Of a DNA stretch of 64,000 nucleotides, positions 26,390-34,979 are shown in pieces. The DNA is taken from the NCBI GenBank assembly GCA_000165345.1, contig CM000429.1, positions 288,001 through 352,000 on the forward strand, given 5' to 3'. Made by a program: the position numbers and the translations under genes. Each line of letters opens with the position of its first letter. Positions within the stretch are counted from its first letter, which is position 1. Under the pieces are notes generated by a model that did not search any database, was not told where the DNA came from, and saw only the letters and a list, made by a program, of their open reading frames with translations.

Positions 26390-29300
26390 TTATTTGCATG
26401 CAGATAAATTTTTATTGTGGCATGCAATTGTATGCAAAATCAATTCAAAGAAATCGCGAGAGAATTTTTCTCCATCGCAAAGTTTGGATTCAGTGAGTAT
26501 TCTACGAAGATTTGAGCGATAATAAATTAGTCTTTCAGTATCATTTGCAAGGCTTAAAGCGGCTTTAATAAATTCTTTCTTATTACTTGCAATGAGTTCA
26601 TTCAAGTTTAAATTAGTGAGAATGGACCTTCCAACATTTTGAGAATGAAATGACGAAATTTCAGTATAAATGTCTGAAGAATCTATTTGGGAATTTTCTG
26701 ATTGGTCAATACTTAAAGTAATTAATGGAACTCCCATAAAAATACATTCAAATGTCGTGGTTGTTCCAGCATATGGGAAAGTATCTAAAGAAATGTCAAT
26801 ATCATTATAAAGCTCCAGATGAGAGTAATAAGAGTTGCTTAAGGGGATTAAAGAAATTCTATGTGGTTGAATATTGTATTTTGATTTGAAAATTTCAAGA
26901 TAAAAATTGCAACAAGACTGTGAGCTGAATGCTTTGGATTTAAGCAACAAATGGCTTTCAGGAACACTTTTTAGGACTTCACCCCAAAGTTCTATTGTTA
27001 AGGGATGTAATTTAGTAACTCTGTTGAAAGATCCAAAAGTTATAAATCCATTTTTTTTCATAGGAGGTTCGGAAATTGGTGGATGTTGAATTTTTGGTAA
27101 AGTATAACAAAGAAAGCAATTTGGGAGATAAAGTAATTTTTCAGAGTATTTTTGTTTTGTATGAAGAGGATCAACTATCTTATCAGTAATACGATAATCA
27201 ATGTACTTTAATCCAGTAGTGTTTGGATACCCAATCCAAGAGATTTGTATTGGAGAGTTTTTTAAAGCAAATAAAGCCAAGCAATTATTGACTGTATGAC
27301 CACTTAAGTCAAAGAGAATATGGATATTATCACTCCGGATAAGCTTTGAAGAAAATTCAATATCTTTCCCATGTATATATCTCCAATTTTCACTAGGAAT
27401 AAGATCCTTGAAAAAACATGAATAATAGTCATGGTGAGGGGAATTGTCATATATGAAGATATTCAGTTTGACTTGTGAATTGCCTTCTATATTACAATCT
27501 CTAGTTGAGTTCTTTGAGAAATTCTTAATTAAAAATTTTATGGGAGCTAAAATGAAGAATGCAACTGCATGATGGAAGTATTCTGCACCAACAAACCCTA
27601 TATTAATCAATTGTTTGTCTGAAGTTGACTCAATATCTGGAATTTCAGCAATAGGAATTAAATCATCAAGACGGTTCTTGATTTCTCTATGAATCTCGAT
27701 GAATTTATCCCCCCATTCCAAAGATAGGTCATACATATCTTGGTAATTTATATAATAATCGGAGTTATTTATCCAGATTTGAGACTCGCATACATAAGAT
27801 TCTGGAGTAGAGCTGATATCTAAGCAAAGACTCTTTTCAGAATCCTTTAAGTTATTAATAATTGACTCAATTGAATTGTTTCTAATATTACCAATTAACT
27901 TTGGGTTATCTAATGGAATAAAGTAATTCAAAATATACAATAGGTTCTGAAACGCCAAAGTATGGTTAGGATCTAGCTCAAGAGCTACTAGAAAACAGTT
28001 TTTTGCCATCAAAAAGTTCCCACAGTCTCTATAAAGCACTCCAAGATTATTATATACATCGGGAACGCCTTGATTAACTTCGATACACCTTTTAAAATAC
28101 TCGTATGACTCGTCAATCTTACCAATATTACCGTATAAAGCTGCAATAACATTCAATGTAGTAATACAATTTTGATTAATTCTGGAAATCCTTTCATAAC
28201 ATAAAATTGCTTGATCAATAAATCCAAGCTTTCTAAGAATTATCCCAAAGTTATCATAGGCATTAACATTCATAGGATTAAAGTGGATTGAAAGTTTGAA
28301 GCACCAAATGGCCTTTTCTTCCTTACCTAATTCATAATATATTATTCCCAAGTCAGTGTATGCTTCTGAAGATTGTGGAATATATAATATCACTTTTTTC
28401 AAAATGGACTTAACTAGGCTAAATCCAGCATTTTTTTTTCTGGCTTCAACTGCTTTATTATAAAGTAATTTACCAAAATAAGATCTGAAATCATCATTAA
28501 ATGGATTTTTCTTGATTAATCTCTCCATAATACCAATGCTCTTATCAATATTGCCATCGATCTCGAAACAAAGTCTGGATAATGAATACCCAATTTCACA
28601 ATTAATACAGTTTTTGTTTGATTCAAAGCATTCCTGTAGCAAATTCTTGCATCTAGAATAAACTTCAAGATTTTTAGAATCATTTATTCTAATATTCGCT
28701 AAAGGTGGTTGACTAAGTTCTATTCCATTCAAAGATAATATTATCCTAACCATACAATGAATAATATTTGGATAAAATAAAAAACAACTCAAGAAATATT
28801 GATGTGAATTATTTTCCAGAAATTCCAGTTTATTTGATTTGAATAGTATTAAAATTGTCTCCTTGAGACAATTTACTAGTCTATCAATATCCTGATACTT
28901 ATTTGCAATATAATTTAATGCAAGACAAGCATCATCATAATTTTTAAGAGAAATTTGAATAATTCCAAATGACAAAACTTGCATAATTAGTTCATGAATT
29001 CTATCAGTATTCTTTATTGAGTTTTCATTATCGTTAATTGATTCGATATTTGTCATTTTGTAACGAATACAATTCTGGATCAGATCAATTATTAAAGAAA
29101 TAACTCTATCAAAATTTACCAATTTAATATTAAAAATTTGAAGCAGAATCTTGGAGAAAATCATTCCTATAAAGTAAGCCAAGTCCTCCATATCAGACTC
29201 TTCAAACTTTTGTATGTCCGAAAGTTTACTTAAGCATTTATTGCAAGAGTAACTCCTTAAATTAATACATATTTGTTGAAATGACTCAATATTATTTAAA

Positions 29301-29488
29301 AGTTCAATTAAAATTGTGCCCACAATACTAATATGATCATTATTCAATAAATGTTCATCAGCTCCATTCACTACCCATTCTTTGAAATTAATGTTACCAT
29401 CAAATTCGGAATTATTACAAAAGCAAAAAATAGTCATTTCTTGGCAAGTTTCTGGGATTTTATTCGTAACTCCACCATCTTTCAGCAT
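26390..29488 (-). CDS. TPR-repeat glycosyltransferase of the GT41 (OGT/SPINDLY) family
   Basis: Central block of TPRs (…AYTDLGIIYYELGKEEKAIWCFKLSIHFNPMNVNAYDNFGIIL…PDVYNNLGVLYRDCGNFLMAKNCFLVALELDPNHTLAFQNL). The C-terminal catalytic region has GT41 hallmarks: IHILFDLSGHTVNNCLALFALKNSPIQISWIGYPNTTGLKYIDYRITDKIVDP…FGSFNRVTKLHP. Confidence 0.7.
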   Translation of the reverse strand: MLKDGGVTNKIPETCQEMTIFCFCNNSEFDGNINFKEWVVNGADEHLLNNDHISIVGTILIELLNNIESFQQICINLRSYSCNKCLSKLSDIQKFEESDMEDLAYFIGMIFSKILLQIFNIKLVNFDRVISLIIDLIQNCIRYKMTNIESINDNENSIKNTDRIHELIMQVLSFGIIQISLKNYDDACLALNYIANKYQDIDRLVNCLKETILILFKSNKLEFLENNSHQYFLSCFLFYPNIIHCMVRIILSLNGIELSQPPLANIRINDSKNLEVYSRCKNLLQECFESNKNCINCEIGYSLSRLCFEIDGNIDKSIGIMERLIKKNPFNDDFRSYFGKLLYNKAVEARKKNAGFSLVKSILKKVILYIPQSSEAYTDLGIIYYELGKEEKAIWCFKLSIHFNPMNVNAYDNFGIILRKLGFIDQAILCYERISRINQNCITTLNVIAALYGNIGKIDESYEYFKRCIEVNQGVPDVYNNLGVLYRDCGNFLMAKNCFLVALELDPNHTLAFQNLLYILNYFIPLDNPKLIGNIRNNSIESIINNLKDSEKSLCLDISSTPESYVCESQIWINNSDYYINYQDMYDLSLEWGDKFIEIHREIKNRLDDLIPIAEIPDIESTSDKQLINIGFVGAEYFHHAVAFFILAPIKFLIKNFSKNSTRDCNIEGNSQVKLNIFIYDNSPHHDYYSCFFKDLIPSENWRYIHGKDIEFSSKLIRSDNIHILFDLSGHTVNNCLALFALKNSPIQISWIGYPNTTGLKYIDYRITDKIVDPLHTKQKYSEKLLYLPNCFLCYTLPKIQHPPISEPPMKKNGFITFGSFNRVTKLHPLTIELWGEVLKSVPESHLLLKSKAFSSQSCCNFYLEIFKSKYNIQPHRISLIPLSNSYYSHLELYNDIDISLDTFPYAGTTTTFECIFMGVPLITLSIDQSENSQIDSSDIYTEISSFHSQNVGRSILTNLNLNELIASNKKEFIKAALSLANDTERLIYYRSNLRRILTESKLCDGEKFSRDFFELILHTIACHNKNLSACK

Positions 29489-29572: not shown

Positions 29573-29958
29573 GTAGTTATTATGTCATTTAGTATGTTAT
29601 GAAAAAACCGCATAAACTTCTGGACTAGACCTTAAAAGCTATAAATCTAGAAATTGATTTCAAAGGTATAAAGTCAATATTGAGTTTGTGTCCTAAAAAC
29701 CCTGGAAATATATTAATGATTACTATTTTTCAATTTTTTATCCAACTCGAATCTATTTTCAACATCATTCAAAAAGCTTTTGCAAATATGAACGCGTATA
29801 AAAGACACTAGTAAAAAATAATAATAAATGGATACCAATAGATATTTTTGAACTAGTAAAAAAGTAATATCACACAAGGAACAGTCTAACTTTAATTATA
29901 TCTAATAATTACTTTGACTTGAAGGCAAATATAAAAAAATTAAATATAGAATAATTCA

Positions 29959-29970
29959 TTGGCGCCAAAA
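29959..29970. promoter_or_regulatory. E2F-type motif TTGGCGCCAAAA, about 140 nt upstream of the CstF-64 start
   Basis: Seen directly in the sequence. Confidence 0.55.
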
Positions 29971-30106
29971 CGAGAATTGTTTTTTTTAATTTATAATACA
30001 ATTAGAGGCGAAGTGAAAAACAGAAAAAAATCCTAAAATATTATTTATAAATAAATATATATATTAACTTATAGAAGGACTTAAACAAGTGGGATAGTTT
30101 TCTGTG

Positions 30107-31095
30107 ATGCATTCTTCAGGAGGAAGTCAGGTCTGGGGTAAGTTTTAAAAGAGTTAAACTTGACAAAAGTGATCATTTAAAATAACTTATCTTTAGTTGG
30201 AAATGTACCATTTGACGCTACAGAAGACGAACTAAGGGAGGTTATGAATTCAGCTGGTCCTGTTCTGTCAATGAGAATTGTGCATGATAAGGACACTGGA
30301 TTGAGTCGTGGGTTCTCTTTTTGCGAATATCGTGATATAGAGACTTGTATTATGGCAATAAAGAGTTTAAATGGATACGAATTAAGAGGGAGATCTATTA
30401 GGGTTGACTGGGCAAGCCAGGATATGAGAAGTAGATATAATCATTTAGTTGTAAATAATACATCTGGTACAGCTCCTGTAACAGCAACAACTCAAGGTGG
30501 GATTGGAATGGGACAACAAGGAACTGAAGGCTTACATCATCCAATATCTTTAACAGCGCCATCTCACGTTCAACAAATTCAGGAGGATGGGACATCTATG
30601 CCTTCAATCCCAAATAACAATGCAAATTTTGATAATATTTCGTCAGAAATTATCCAACTTGTACAAGGAATGACAGTTTCTCAGTTATATTATTTGATAG
30701 GCCATATGCAAAAACTTGTTGTCCAGAATCCTGAAACTGCAAGAAGCATTTTACTTGATAATCCTCAATTTTGTTATGCTCTTCTTCACTCTCAATTCAT
30801 TTTAGGTATGGTTAATGAACCATTTGTTCCACTTAATCAAGAGCAACTTAACAAAGCGAATGAAATCAGAACTAAAGTATTGACTTTAAGAAACGAAAAT
30901 TCTAATATTAATATTAAAAATTTGGGAGAAGATGTTTCTGTTCTTATTGAGGAAATTGCAAACAACCCAAACCCTGCATTACTTCAAGCATTGGCTTCAA
31001 TCCAGCCAAATTCCGTTGCCCAGTGGACTGAAGAAGAAAAATCTAAGATCCTTGCAATCCAACAAGCACTAAAAAATAGGGGGCTAATTAACTAA
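30107..31095 (+). CDS. cleavage stimulation factor 64-kDa subunit (CstF-64/Rna15-like), two exons
   Basis: Exon 1 is 30107-30137 (ATGCATTCTTCAGGAGGAAGTCAGGTCTGGG). The intron is 30138-30196 (GTAAGT…TTTAG, 59 nt). Exon 2 is 30197-31095. Splicing gives MHSSGGSQVWVGNVPFDATEDELREVMNSAGPVLSMRIVHDKDTGLSRGFSFCEYRDIETCIMAIKSLNGYELRGRSIRVDWAS, a complete RRM (RNP2 VGNVPF, RNP1 RGFSFCEY) that aligns to CstF-64. The hinge and C-terminal regions follow. Track ORF 30244 begins inside the RRM. Confidence 0.75.
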
Positions 31096-31252
31096 AGAGC
31101 TCGTTCATATACTACTAAATCATTGTTATAGAAATTAGTATGCTTAATTTATTATATTATATGTTTCTTTCATTATTTTTTAATATTCTTTTATTTGTGT
31201 GTTTTTATGTGCAAATTTCCAAGGTAAAAAAAATAATAAATTTGTACTTTTT

Positions 31253-31265
31253 ATGGCGCCAAAAA
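31253..31265. promoter_or_regulatory. E2F-type motif ATGGCGCCAAAAA, ending about 20 nt upstream of the CHMP1 ATG
   Basis: Seen directly in the sequence. Confidence 0.55.
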
Positions 31266-31283
31266 TTAAATTTTTACTTCAAA

Positions 31284-31923
31284 ATGGGAAATAGGATTTC
31301 TATTGATGATTCAATATTTGAACTCAAGCTACAGAAAAAGGAGCTAGAGAGACAATACAATAAGAGAGATAGAGATTCAAAGAGCGAAAGGAAGAAAGCT
31401 AAGGATGCTATAATTTCCGGCAAGGCAGACCTCTCTAAGTAAGTTTAAAATAACTACAATTTTTAACCATTGCCTCTTGTTTATAACGTCTCCAAATTAT
31501 TATTCTGATAGGATTTATGCAGAGAACTCACTAAGAATGCAGGAAGAATGTAAAGAACTTCTTATCATGATCTCCAAACTAGATCGACTCTGCGCCAGAC
31601 TAGAAAAAGCATCATCAAAGGAAAAAATTTCAACACAGCTTTTAGATATTATGCCAAAATTGAAAAAGCAACTTTCCGAAGAAGGAGTTATGGGATACTC
31701 AAATATGGGCAAGATCAAAGAAATCGGCCAGCTACTTAATACTATTGAAGATTCCCAGCCCGAAACAGTTGGGGAGAATGTGGGTAAAGAAAAATGCATG
31801 CATGCAGAAGACTCTGTTGAAAGACTGCTAGATGAGCTTTTAAATGAACATGCTATGGAAATTGATCTGGCAATATCCTCAAAAACTGAAATTAATGAGT
31901 TACTGGAAGAAAAGTTAGAGTAA
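31284..31923 (+). CDS. CHMP1: ESCRT-III subunit CHMP1/Did2 (Snf7 family), two exons
   Basis: Exon 1 is 31284-31438 (MGNRISIDDSIFELKLQKKELERQYNKRDRDSKSERKKAKDAIISGKADLS). The intron is 31439-31511 (GTAAGT…GATAG, 73 nt). Exon 2 is 31512-31923 (…KIYAENSLRMQEECKELLIMISKLDRLCARLEKASS…). The join matches CHMP1 residue-for-residue in register (…ARVYAENAIRKKNE…LRMASRVDAV…). Track ORFs 31140..31442 and 31477..31923 are the two halves. Confidence 0.75.
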
Positions 31924-32555: not shown

Positions 32556-34979
32556 ATGAAACAAGATTTAACAGTTGTTAAAAGGATAAAGATTGAAGAG
32601 AAATGTAAAAAAGTGGGTAATCTAGATATTAAATACGAACCAGAGACGGATATCGAAAACAAAGCCGGTTATATGAACTCAGAAAAATATACATCATTGT
32701 TCGATGGCTCTGATAGAGATGATGAGGATCTTAATAGAGGATTTAAGCGCTTGGTTCGAAGAAAGAGAAGTGCTAGAAATCTCTCTGATTCATCCAGTGT
32801 ATCCTCTTCATCTATTGAATCTATTGGAAAAAGCGATTTTACAGATTTAGAAAACAGCTCTCAAGATGATCAAACTTTTGAAGAAAAAGAAGCAAAGAGG
32901 TTAAGGGAATTAATGCAGAGAGAAGAAGATGCTCTATCTTTCTGCTTGGATATTTCTTCGAAGATGAAAGAGGGGATTGTCGACTTTTTTGTAGGAAATA
33001 ATGCAGACAATGAAACTAAAAAGCAGATTACCGACAATATTAAGAATGGGCATTGTAATATTAGTAAACTTACAGAGGAATTGAAAAAAAGTGAAATATT
33101 TGAGTATATCAACTCTTTTGGTGATACTAGATTGAAGGAATACCAAATAGTTGGAGTCTCATGGCTTTTGGCTTTGCATCAGAATTCATATAATGGCATT
33201 CTTGCCGATGAAATGGGGTTAGGTAAGACTGCTCAAACTTGTGTTTGGTTGCAATATCTATTTGATTCTGGAAAGTTGGTAAAACCCGTAATAATTAGTT
33301 GTCCTGCTTCCTTATTAGATAATTGGACAAAGGAAGTATCTATTTGGGCCCCAAGAATTAGAGCTGTAAAGTACCATGGATCTCAAAAGGAAAGACGCCA
33401 AATCGCCGACCAACTTTTTGAGGAATATGAGGAATCTAGAGTGGATGTAATTATCACCACTTTCCAAATGCTCAGCAATAAGATGGACATTAATATGGCT
33501 TTCAAACACTTTGAATTTTCATATATGATAGTAGATGAGGCTCATAACATCAAAAATTCGGCTTCTCAAAGGTATAAATCCATGAGTAGGAAGATCCAAT
33601 CTGAGAGAAAGCTGTTATTGACTGGAACTCCAATATCCAACTCTATTTCAGAGCTTAGTAATATGCTTATCTTCTTGATGCCAGAGGTATTCAATTCTGA
33701 TCTGCTAGAGGATGCGTATAATAGTTATAAGCGCAAGATTTCAAATAGAGAAAAGCTTGATGAAGCTAACTCTGAGGTATTGTTCCTCCAACAGATTATT
33801 GCTCCCTTTGTACTCAGGAGGTCTAAGCAGGACGTACTATCCTGCTTGCCTAAGAAGCACACCTTTATCGAATTCTGTGAGCTAACTAAAATACAAAAGA
33901 AACAGTATGATAATGAAATTGGACGTATATATATGGAAAAAGACTCAGTAAATGATTCAAAAGATTCAAATATGCTTGATAAGGACTCCAACCAAGAATC
34001 TTCAGATGAGAAGAAGCTAATTAACTTAATTGAAAGAAAGATCCAAGATAAGGTAAACAGCCACTTTGGAGATTCAGCTTCTGCTGAGAATGAAAAGGAA
34101 TCTGAAGACGATAATCTTAACTCAAATGATCTAAAAACAGGTTTACAAGACTACGATCAAGATCAGGAACAAGCTGAACAAGTAAAATCTCGTGAAGGAG
34201 GAAAACATCACTACGACCCAAAATACGTAAATTCGATTATATTCAGGATGAGAAGGATTTGTAACCATACCCTTTTACACCAGGGCCACTATACTAGCAA
34301 GCAAATAGAAGAGCTTGTGGACTACTTGTCAGATAATGTGGATGAATTCAAAGGGTACTCTAGGATTAAAGTAGAACAATATATTACTCAGCTCTGTGAC
34401 TATGAGATTCATCAGCTTGTTTCTAGACTTTTAATAGTGAAGAACTCCCCATTACTTGAGAGATTTAGGATTGATGATGAACTAATTATTAATGGGAGCT
34501 GTAAGCTAAAGAAAATGAACGAAATTATCCAAAGCACAGTAATCGAGAACAAGGAAAAGTGCCTTATTTTTTGCCATCACACAATGCTACTCGATATTAT
34601 CGAAGAGTATATAAAGATTAAGTATAACATTCCTGACTTCTACTTGAGATTGGACGGGACAACTCCCATACTTGAAAGACAAAATATGATAGAGAAATTT
34701 CAGACTACTCAGGTTCCGTTGTTTCTTTTGTCAACAAAGGCAGCCGGGCAAGGCCTGAATCTTACAGTTGCATCATCTGTTATTATGATGGACCTTGACT
34801 ACAACCCCCAAATAGAAAAACAAGCAGAGGATAGAGTTCACAGAATAGGCCAAAGCAAACAAGTGAAAATCTTTAAGTTGGTTTGCAAGGATACTATAGA
34901 AGAAAATATCTTTAATTGCTGCCAATCCAAGCTAACTTTAGACAACGCCTTTGGGGGGAGGAATCAAAGACAGTTCTAA
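32556..34979 (+). CDS. SNF2-family chromatin-remodelling ATPase (Fun30/SMARCAD1-like), acidic N-terminus and long insert between the RecA lobes
   Basis: LKEYQIVGVSWLLALHQNSYNGILADEMGLGKTAQT (motif I), MIVDEAHNIKN (DEAH box), then a low-complexity insert, then helicase-C LSTKAAGQGLNLTVASSVIMMDLDYNPQIEKQAEDRVHRIGQSKQVKIF. Confidence 0.75.
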   Translation: MKQDLTVVKRIKIEEKCKKVGNLDIKYEPETDIENKAGYMNSEKYTSLFDGSDRDDEDLNRGFKRLVRRKRSARNLSDSSSVSSSSIESIGKSDFTDLENSSQDDQTFEEKEAKRLRELMQREEDALSFCLDISSKMKEGIVDFFVGNNADNETKKQITDNIKNGHCNISKLTEELKKSEIFEYINSFGDTRLKEYQIVGVSWLLALHQNSYNGILADEMGLGKTAQTCVWLQYLFDSGKLVKPVIISCPASLLDNWTKEVSIWAPRIRAVKYHGSQKERRQIADQLFEEYEESRVDVIITTFQMLSNKMDINMAFKHFEFSYMIVDEAHNIKNSASQRYKSMSRKIQSERKLLLTGTPISNSISELSNMLIFLMPEVFNSDLLEDAYNSYKRKISNREKLDEANSEVLFLQQIIAPFVLRRSKQDVLSCLPKKHTFIEFCELTKIQKKQYDNEIGRIYMEKDSVNDSKDSNMLDKDSNQESSDEKKLINLIERKIQDKVNSHFGDSASAENEKESEDDNLNSNDLKTGLQDYDQDQEQAEQVKSREGGKHHYDPKYVNSIIFRMRRICNHTLLHQGHYTSKQIEELVDYLSDNVDEFKGYSRIKVEQYITQLCDYEIHQLVSRLLIVKNSPLLERFRIDDELIINGSCKLKKMNEIIQSTVIENKEKCLIFCHHTMLLDIIEEYIKIKYNIPDFYLRLDGTTPILERQNMIEKFQTTQVPLFLLSTKAAGQGLNLTVASSVIMMDLDYNPQIEKQAEDRVHRIGQSKQVKIFKLVCKDTIEENIFNCCQSKLTLDNAFGGRNQRQF

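What the first reader, a model, noticed from the sequence alone, without database searches (positions are those of the whole stretch)
30107..30196. Intron restoring the full RRM of CstF-64, missed by the ORF track
ORF 30244.. begins in the middle of an RRM (RNP1 RGFSFCEY is present, RNP2 is absent). 100 nt upstream, an ATG-led 31-nt exon ends at a perfect GTAAGT donor. A TTTAG acceptor 59 nt further on joins it in phase to VGNVPFDATEDELREV, giving the RNP2 hexamer and a contiguous alignment to CstF-64/Rna15.
Basis: partly seen in the sequence, partly recalled or inferred. Interest (0 to 1): 0.5.

Follow-up and report, generated by a model that had tools for sequence, protein, structure and literature searches.

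The report
Known short intron in Cryptosporidium CstF-64

Summary
An ATG-led 31-nt exon (30107-30137) ends at GTAAGT. A 59-nt, 22% GC intron (30138-30196) ends in TTTAG. Exon 2 (30197-31095) continues in phase. The spliced 309-aa product has a complete RRM (Pfam RRM_1 positions 1-70 of 70, against 21-70 for the ORF alone), plus the CstF-64 hinge and a C-terminal CstF domain.

Eight Cryptosporidium species share the same 31-nt exon, an invariant GTAAGTT donor and a TAG acceptor. Exon 1 varies almost only at third codon positions. The intron diverges freely, is 54-146 nt long, and carries in-frame stops in every species.

The finding is not new. The exact 309-aa protein is already deposited for C. 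parvum under four NCBI accessions. Public record CP029780.1, identical to the window across this stretch, places the gene at exactly 30107-31095. Only the 2004 models lacked the intron: C. parvum EAK88575.1 (a partial model) and C. hominis TU502 XP_668427.1 (283 aa). The public C. muris RN66 model still appears to miss the same intron.

Verdict: real, correctly interpreted, already known, low interest.

The parts
29960..29967 (.). TGGCGCCA palindrome 147 nt upstream of the start codon, a possible upstream (E2F-like) promoter motif
   Evidence: 8 copies in the window against 0.1 expected. The functional assignment rests on my own knowledge of Cryptosporidium upstream motifs and was not tested here.
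30107..30137 (+). Exon 1 of the CstF-64 (CSTF2/Rna15) orthologue: ATG plus 10 codons and 1 nt, encoding MHSSGGSQVW and the first base of Val11
   Evidence: The exon is conserved in 8 Cryptosporidium species, with 8 of 9 variable columns at codon position 3. The gene start in public record CP029780.1 maps to 30107.
30138..30196 (+). 59-nt phase-1 GT-AG spliceosomal intron (GTAAGTTT...TCTTTAG, 22% GC). It contains the TAA (30178-30180) that closes the downstream ORF frame. A possible branch site TAAC lies at 30183-30186 (inferred only).
   Evidence: The GTAAGTT donor and TAG acceptor are invariant in 8 species. Length ranges from 54 to 146 nt (mod 3 = 0, 1 or 2). Identity to C. parvum is 25-36% in the five distant species (68% in C. 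ubiquitum, 93% in C. meleagridis). A retained intron gives in-frame stops in all 8 species. The gene span of 989 nt for a 309-aa product in CP029780.1 requires a 59-nt intron.
30197..31095 (+). Exon 2: the rest of the RRM (RNP2 VGNVPF, RNP1 RGFSFCEY), the CstF-64 hinge domain, the C-terminal 'partial_CstF' domain, and stop TAA at 31093-31095
   Evidence: Pfam on the 309-aa product: RRM_1 residues 9-79, CSTF2_hinge 159-221, partial_CstF 247-307. PDB hits to the CstF-64 RRM 1p1t and 6q2i and to Rna15 2x1a.
30244..31095 (+). The mechanical ORF (283 aa), which starts at internal Met27 and lacks RNP2. It is not the true start.
   Evidence: It is identical in form to the obsolete C. hominis TU502 model XP_668427.1.

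Best explanation
The window is Cryptosporidium parvum chromosomal DNA. Positions 30107-31095 (+) hold the two-exon gene for the CstF-64 / CSTF2 / Rna15 orthologue, the RNA-binding subunit of the mRNA 3'-end cleavage stimulation factor.

A canonical GT-AG intron of 59 nt (30138-30196, phase 1) interrupts codon 11, the Val that opens the RNP2 motif (VGNVPF) on the first beta-strand of the RRM. Splicing joins a 31-nt ATG exon to the long ORF and yields a 309-aa protein with a complete RRM, a hinge domain and a C-terminal domain.

Unspliced RNA would encode only MHSSGGSQVWGKF followed by a stop. Initiation at ATG 30244 would give a protein without beta-strand 1 and RNP2, which by established RRM structure should not bind RNA normally.

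Shown here: the sequence anatomy, the domain completion, conservation across the genus, and identity with deposited gene models. Inferred: the splicing event itself, since I examined no reads, and the branch site.
For: The RRM_1 match becomes full length (1-70 of 70, 68.8 bits against 41.6) and the CstF-64-specific hinge and C-terminal domains are present. The alignment to the human CstF-64 RRM structure runs unbroken across the junction.

Eight species (C. parvum, meleagridis, ubiquitum, canis, felis, xiaoi, ryanae, muris) share a 31-nt exon 1 encoding MHSSGG[S/N/T]QVW, an invariant GTAAGTT donor and a TAG acceptor in front of TTGG.AATGT. Eight of nine variable exon-1 columns are third codon positions. 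Intron length varies from 54 to 146 nt and intron sequence is largely unalignable between distant species. A retained intron has stops in all eight.

Only one alternative in-phase ATG/GT combination exists.

The exact 309-aa product is deposited as C. parvum cleavage stimulation factor subunit 2 (KAL5370371.1, QOY43496.1, WKS76031.1, WRK30524.1). CP029780.1 is 100% identical to window 29807-31395 and places the gene at exactly window 30107-31095.

The intron's 22% GC equals the genome-wide intron mean reported by Isaza et al. 2015 (PMC4637869). Baptista et al. 2022 report RNA-seq support for all introns of their C. parvum annotation (PMC8744675).
Against: A degenerate search for the spliced junction in JGI metagenome contigs found nothing, which is expected for this organism. 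No Logan assembly carries the 309-aa product. The GTAAGT hexamer alone is not enriched in the window. The intron position is not shared with the Schistosoma CSTF2 gene, so conservation beyond the genus gives no support.
Confidence: 0.97

Rival explanations
1. There is no intron. The gene is the single ORF 30244-31095, translated from ATG 30244 into a 283-aa protein with an N-terminally truncated RRM, as in the 2004 C. hominis TU502 model.
For: The ORF exists and starts with ATG. An identical-style model was once deposited (XP_668427.1, 283 aa).
Against: Sixteen in-frame codons upstream of this ATG (VGNVPFDATEDELREV) match RRM profile positions 3-20 and are conserved in all species. The RRM would lack RNP2 and beta-strand 1. 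Exon 1 shows codon-type conservation in 8 species. Current annotations have replaced this model.
Confidence: 0.01
2. The same acceptor is used with an alternative upstream donor, GTCAGG at 30126. Exon 1 would then be 19 nt and the intron 71 nt, giving MHSSGGIGNVPF...
For: This is the only other ATG-led, stop-free, in-phase combination within 600 nt.
Against: The donor is weak. The GT at that position is absent in C. xiaoi, C. ryanae (AACCAAG) and C. muris (ACTCAAG), while the codons for [S/N/T]QVW are kept with synonymous changes. The deposited proteins contain SQVW. This splice would also remove the first RRM profile positions.
Confidence: 0.01
3. Intron retention is a regulated minor outcome. 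A fraction of transcripts would keep the intron and yield only a 13-aa peptide, or an RNP2-less protein by downstream initiation, and this would tune CstF-64 dosage.
For: The only support is indirect. The intron and its exact position and donor heptamer are kept across the whole genus despite massive intron loss in Cryptosporidium (intron loss and shortening in the genus are described in PMC8744675, and Isaza et al., PMC4637869, find that about 90% of C. parvum genes lack introns).
Against: There are no data for it. Conservation of the splice signals is what any constitutive intron would show. The intron interior is not conserved between distant species, which argues against embedded regulatory elements.
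Confidence: 0.03

Closest known systems
C. parvum 'cleavage stimulation factor subunit 2' gene model in current public annotations (proteins KAL5370371.1, QOY43496.1, WKS76031.1, WRK30524.1; gene on CP029780.1)
   Same: The 309-aa product is identical. The gene span is identical (window 30107-31095), which implies the same 59-nt intron.
   Different: Nothing. This is the same feature.
Human CstF-64 (CSTF2) and yeast Rna15
   Same: All have an N-terminal RRM with RNP2 and RNP1. The best solved-structure matches over a single RRM are 1p1t and 6q2i (CstF-64) at E about 1e-23, with 2x1a (Rna15) at 3e-17. The multi-RRM poly(A)-binding protein 6r5k tops the table marginally. All also have a hinge domain (PF14327).
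   Different: The Cryptosporidium protein is much shorter, at 309 aa. The alignment shows no long Pro/Gly-rich region like the one in the Schistosoma homologue. Its C-terminus matches PF15861 'partial_CstF' rather than PF14304 CSTF_C. The intron position is not shared with the Schistosoma CSTF2 gene, whose first exon covers RNP2.
Original 2004 gene models: C. parvum EAK88575.1/XP_627975.1 (304 aa, partial) and C. hominis TU502 XP_668427.1 (283 aa)
   Same: Same locus and same exon 2.
   Different: Both lack exon 1 and the intron. The C. parvum model starts without a Met at NNLSLVGNVPFD, which reads the 3' end of the intron as coding. The C. hominis model starts at internal Met27.

Membership tests
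CstF-64 / CSTF2 / Rna15 family | N-terminal canonical RRM with both RNP2 and RNP1 | tested here: met
   The spliced product matches RRM_1 at positions 1-70 of 70, 68.8 bits (cutoff 20.7). RNP2 is VGNVPF and RNP1 is RGFSFCEY. It aligns to the CstF-64 RRM 1p1t at E = 7e-24.
CstF-64 / CSTF2 / Rna15 family | Hinge domain following the RRM (in the characterised proteins this binds CstF-77/Rna14 and symplekin) | tested here: met
   PF14327 CSTF2_hinge, 47.2 bits (cutoff 27), residues 159-221. The binding partners were not tested.
CstF-64 / CSTF2 / Rna15 family | Conserved C-terminal helical domain | tested here: inconclusive
   PF15861 partial_CstF scores 61.2 bits (cutoff 27) at residues 247-307. 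PF14304 CSTF_C, found in the Schistosoma homologue, did not match.
Canonical U2-type GT-AG spliceosomal intron | GT donor and AG acceptor in positions that restore a continuous reading frame | tested here: met
   GTAAGT at 30138 and TAG ending at 30196. The spliced frame is open for 309 codons.
Canonical U2-type GT-AG spliceosomal intron | Comparative signature: splice sites conserved, interior free to diverge in sequence and length, flanking exons under coding constraint | tested here: met
   Eight species. Donor GTAAGTT and acceptor TAG are invariant. Length is 54-146 nt. Intron identity is 25-36% in the five distant species, against 74-90% for exon 1 in the same species. Eight of 9 variable exon-1 columns are at codon position 3.
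Canonical U2-type GT-AG spliceosomal intron | Spliced junction observed in RNA | not testable with these tools
   No RNA-seq access. The junction pattern search in JGI metagenome contigs returned 0 hits. The literature states RNA-seq support for all introns in the CpIA annotation (PMC8744675), but I could not inspect this gene's reads.

The most novel reading that the evidence does not exclude
The phase-1 intron inside RNP2 has been kept at the identical position, with an invariant GTAAGTT donor, from C. muris to C. parvum in a genus that has shed most of its introns. One possible reason is that regulated retention of the intron controls the dosage of the 3'-end processing factor CstF-64, since retention truncates the product to 13 aa. 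A separate, minor and practical point is that the public C. muris RN66 model (MYIFIVGNV...) is mis-started inside the intron and should read MHSSGGTQVWVGNVAFD...
Probability: 0.04. Interest if true: 0.3.

Novelty: already known. Interest (0 to 1): 0.08.

Why it matters
The finding matters only for annotation quality. It shows that a sequence-only reader can recover a short 5' intron correctly. The truncated models of 283, 296 and 304 aa that still sit in databases should not be used for domain or orthology analyses of the Cryptosporidium 3'-end processing machinery. No new biology follows, because the correct model is already public.

Tried and rejected
1. GTAAGT enrichment as evidence. The hexamer is not over-represented in the window (30 against 23.5 expected), so it carries no weight on its own.

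2. The alternative donor GTCAGG at 30126. It is not conserved across species and conflicts with the deposited proteins.

3. Direct transcript evidence. A degenerate exon-exon junction pattern searched in JGI metagenome contigs gave 0 hits. No Logan assembly carries the 309-aa product.

4. Supplementary tables of the two re-annotation papers. None is held as text for PMC8744675, and the gene is not mentioned in the one file held for PMC4637869. I therefore could not obtain the CryptoDB gene ID or the date the intron was first annotated.

5. Deep conservation of the intron position. The Schistosoma spindalis CSTF2 first exon covers about residues 1-40, including RNP2, so there is no intron at the homologous site. 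The JGI homologue P0010 sits on contigs of about 1.3 kb with an uninterrupted ORF and is uninformative.

6. Structure prediction and fold search were not run, because the sequence-level evidence was already decisive.

Full report
**Observation.**
I read window 29700-31800 directly and rebuilt the proposed splice in a script. The ATG is at 30107-30109. The first exon is 30107-30137, 31 nt, with sequence ATGCATTCTTCAGGAGGAAGTCAGGTCTGGG. GTAAGT follows at 30138-30143. The intron, 30138-30196, is 59 nt at 22% GC and ends in ...TCTTTAG. Exon 2 begins at 30197 with TT GGA AAT GTA CCA TTT. The split codon G|TT is Val11, so the intron is phase 1.

The spliced CDS is 930 nt and encodes 309 aa, beginning MHSSGGSQVWVGNVPFDATEDELREVMNSAGPV and ending at TAA 31093-31095. 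The mechanical ORF 30244-31095 starts at what is Met27 of this product. Its frame is closed upstream by TAA 30178-30180, which lies inside the intron, and no in-frame ATG lies between that stop and 30244. Translation without splicing from 30107 gives MHSSGGSQVWGKF and then a stop. Every number in the finding is correct.

**Is it more than chance?**
The donor hexamer is not evidence on its own. GTAAGT occurs 30 times in the window on both strands, against 23.5 ± 4.9 in shuffles. The configuration as a whole is very constrained. Between the stop at 30178 and the RNP2 codons there is a single AG, at 30195-30196. Within 600 nt upstream there are only two ATG-led, stop-free exon/donor combinations that join in phase at 30197: the proposed one, and one using a weak GTCAGG at 30126.

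**Domain evidence.**
Pfam gives RRM_1 profile positions 1-70 of 70 (68.8 bits) for the spliced product. For the ORF alone it gives positions 21-70 (41.6 bits). Both versions carry CSTF2_hinge (47 bits) and partial_CstF (61 bits), which identify the protein as the CstF-64/Rna15 orthologue and not just any RRM protein.

Against solved structures, the best matches over a single RRM are the human CstF-64 RRM (1p1t and 6q2i, E about 1e-23). The multi-RRM poly(A)-binding protein 6r5k tops the table by a small margin. The CstF-64 alignment starts at query residue 8 (QVWVGNVPFDATEDEL against SVFVGNIPYEATEEQL) and crosses the exon junction without a gap. Yeast Rna15 RRMs also match.

**Comparative evidence.**
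A protein search found orthologues only in Cryptosporidium at high identity, and their N-termini align. I fetched the genomic loci of seven further species:
- C. ubiquitum, L001
- C. muris, L002
- C. felis, L003
- C. canis, L004
- C. xiaoi, L005
- C. ryanae, L006
- C. meleagridis, L007

All eight species share these features:
- A 31-nt ATG exon encoding MHSSGG[S/N/T]QVW plus one G.
- An invariant GTAAGTT donor.
- A TAG acceptor directly in front of TTGG.AATGT.

The intron is 54, 58, 59, 59, 62, 100, 142 and 146 nt long in the different species, with lengths that are 0, 1 or 2 modulo 3. Its identity to C. parvum falls to 25-36% in the five distant species, while exon 1 stays at 74-90% in those species. 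Eight of the nine variable exon-1 columns are third codon positions. Retaining the intron introduces in-frame stops in all eight species. This is the classical signature of a real spliceosomal intron flanked by coding sequence. The alternative GTCAGG donor is not conserved: the GT is missing in C. xiaoi, C. ryanae and C. muris.

**Already known.**
An exact-sequence look-up shows that the 309-aa spliced product is already deposited as C. parvum 'cleavage stimulation factor subunit 2 / Cleavage stimulation factor with RNA recognition motif domain' under KAL5370371.1, QOY43496.1, WKS76031.1 and WRK30524.1. Equivalent 309-aa models exist for C. hominis, C. meleagridis, C. tyzzeri and C. ubiquitum.

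Public record CP029780.1 (GCA_031892065.1) is 100% identical to window 29807-31395. It places the gene at exactly window 30107-31095, a span of 989 nt for a 930-nt CDS, which means the same 59-nt intron.

Only the first-generation annotations lacked it. C. parvum EAK88575.1/XP_627975.1 is a 304-aa 'partial' model that starts without a Met at NNLSLVGNVPFD and so reads the intron's 3' end as coding. C. hominis TU502 XP_668427.1 is the 283-aa ORF-only model.

The literature explains this history. Isaza et al. 2015 added 451 introns to the C. parvum Iowa annotation using cDNA and RNA-seq, and report a mean intron GC of 22%, the same as this intron (PMC4637869). Baptista et al. 2022 made 1926 annotation updates and state that the introns of the new annotation are 100% supported by RNA-seq (PMC8744675). 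I could not confirm from supplementary tables which re-annotation first introduced this particular intron.

**Mechanism.**
This is canonical GT-AG splicing of a short, AT-rich phase-1 intron that interrupts the first beta-strand (RNP2) of the RRM. It is shown that the spliced product is a complete CstF-64-type protein and that the exon/intron architecture is under selection across the genus. It is inferred that splicing is constitutive. It is also inferred that the TAAC at 30183-30186, about 11 nt before the acceptor, is the branch site. C. xiaoi and C. ryanae have a perfect TACTAAC in the corresponding region.

By established knowledge of RRM structure (RNP2 on beta-strand 1, RNP1 on beta-strand 3, as in the CstF-64 RRM structure 1p1t), a protein started at Met27 would lack part of the RNA-binding sheet.

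**What I could not show.**
I had no direct junction reads. A degenerate junction pattern found nothing in JGI metagenome contigs. The intron position is not ancient across eukaryotes as far as I could test: the Schistosoma spindalis CSTF2 first exon covers RNP2.

**Verdict.**
Interest is low. The one small residual item is that the public C. muris RN66 model (P0009, MYIFIVGNV...) starts at an ATG inside the 3' end of the homologous intron. The conserved exon 1 lies 115 nt upstream of that ATG (L002 1386-1416, followed by a 100-nt intron at 1417-1516) and gives MHSSGGTQVWVGNVAFD....

Noticed in passing
L002 1386-1516 (C. muris RN66, DS989733.1): The public C. muris model (P0009, 313 aa, MYIFIVGNV...) starts at an ATG inside the 3' end of the homologous intron. 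The conserved exon 1 (ATGCATTCTTCAGGTGGGACTCAAGTTTGGG) lies at 1386-1416, followed by GTAAGT and a 100-nt intron. This gives a 318-aa product starting MHSSGGTQVWVGNVAFD. The deposited model appears to need correction.
   Followed up: yes
window 31284-31923 (+): The next gene downstream also has a short 5' intron. Exon 1 is 31284-31438, a 73-nt GTAAGT...GATAG intron is 31439-31511, and exon 2 is 31512-31923. The 188-aa product has an N-terminal MG and reads as charged and heptad-like (by eye, not computed). It has no Pfam match. The public record starts this gene at the same ATG and gives the same length.
   Followed up: partly
protein P0020 (KAH8584939.1 / XP_067202649.1, a Cryptosporidium species): This 549-aa deposited model fuses the CstF-64 orthologue to the downstream 188-aa gene through translated intergenic sequence. 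It is probably a false gene fusion of the kind described for compact Cryptosporidium genomes.
   Followed up: no
window 1198, 2893, 12795, 21816, 23378, 23429, 29960, 31254: The palindrome TGGCGCCA occurs 8 times against 0.1 expected by shuffling. Two copies sit 147 nt and 30 nt upstream of the start codons of the CstF-64 gene and the next gene. This is consistent with the E2F-like upstream motif known in Cryptosporidium (my own knowledge, not tested here).
   Followed up: partly
window 26390-29488 (-) and 32556-34979 (+): The flanking genes are a 1032-aa TPR plus Glyco_transf_41 (O-GlcNAc-transferase-like) protein and an 807-aa SNF2-family helicase. The upstream TPR/Glyco_transf_41 gene is syntenic in six of the seven other species (not within the C. 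muris locus fetched). The SNF2 helicase is seen downstream in four of them (C. ubiquitum, felis, canis, meleagridis).
   Followed up: partly
proteins P0002, P0003, P0005, P0022 (Logan assemblies): These 296-aa 'MPFDAT...' products are prokaryote-style gene calls. In C. meleagridis and C. ubiquitum the Val codon of VGNVPF is GTG, so I infer these calls start there. They are a further set of truncated models of this gene in public protein collections.
   Followed up: no
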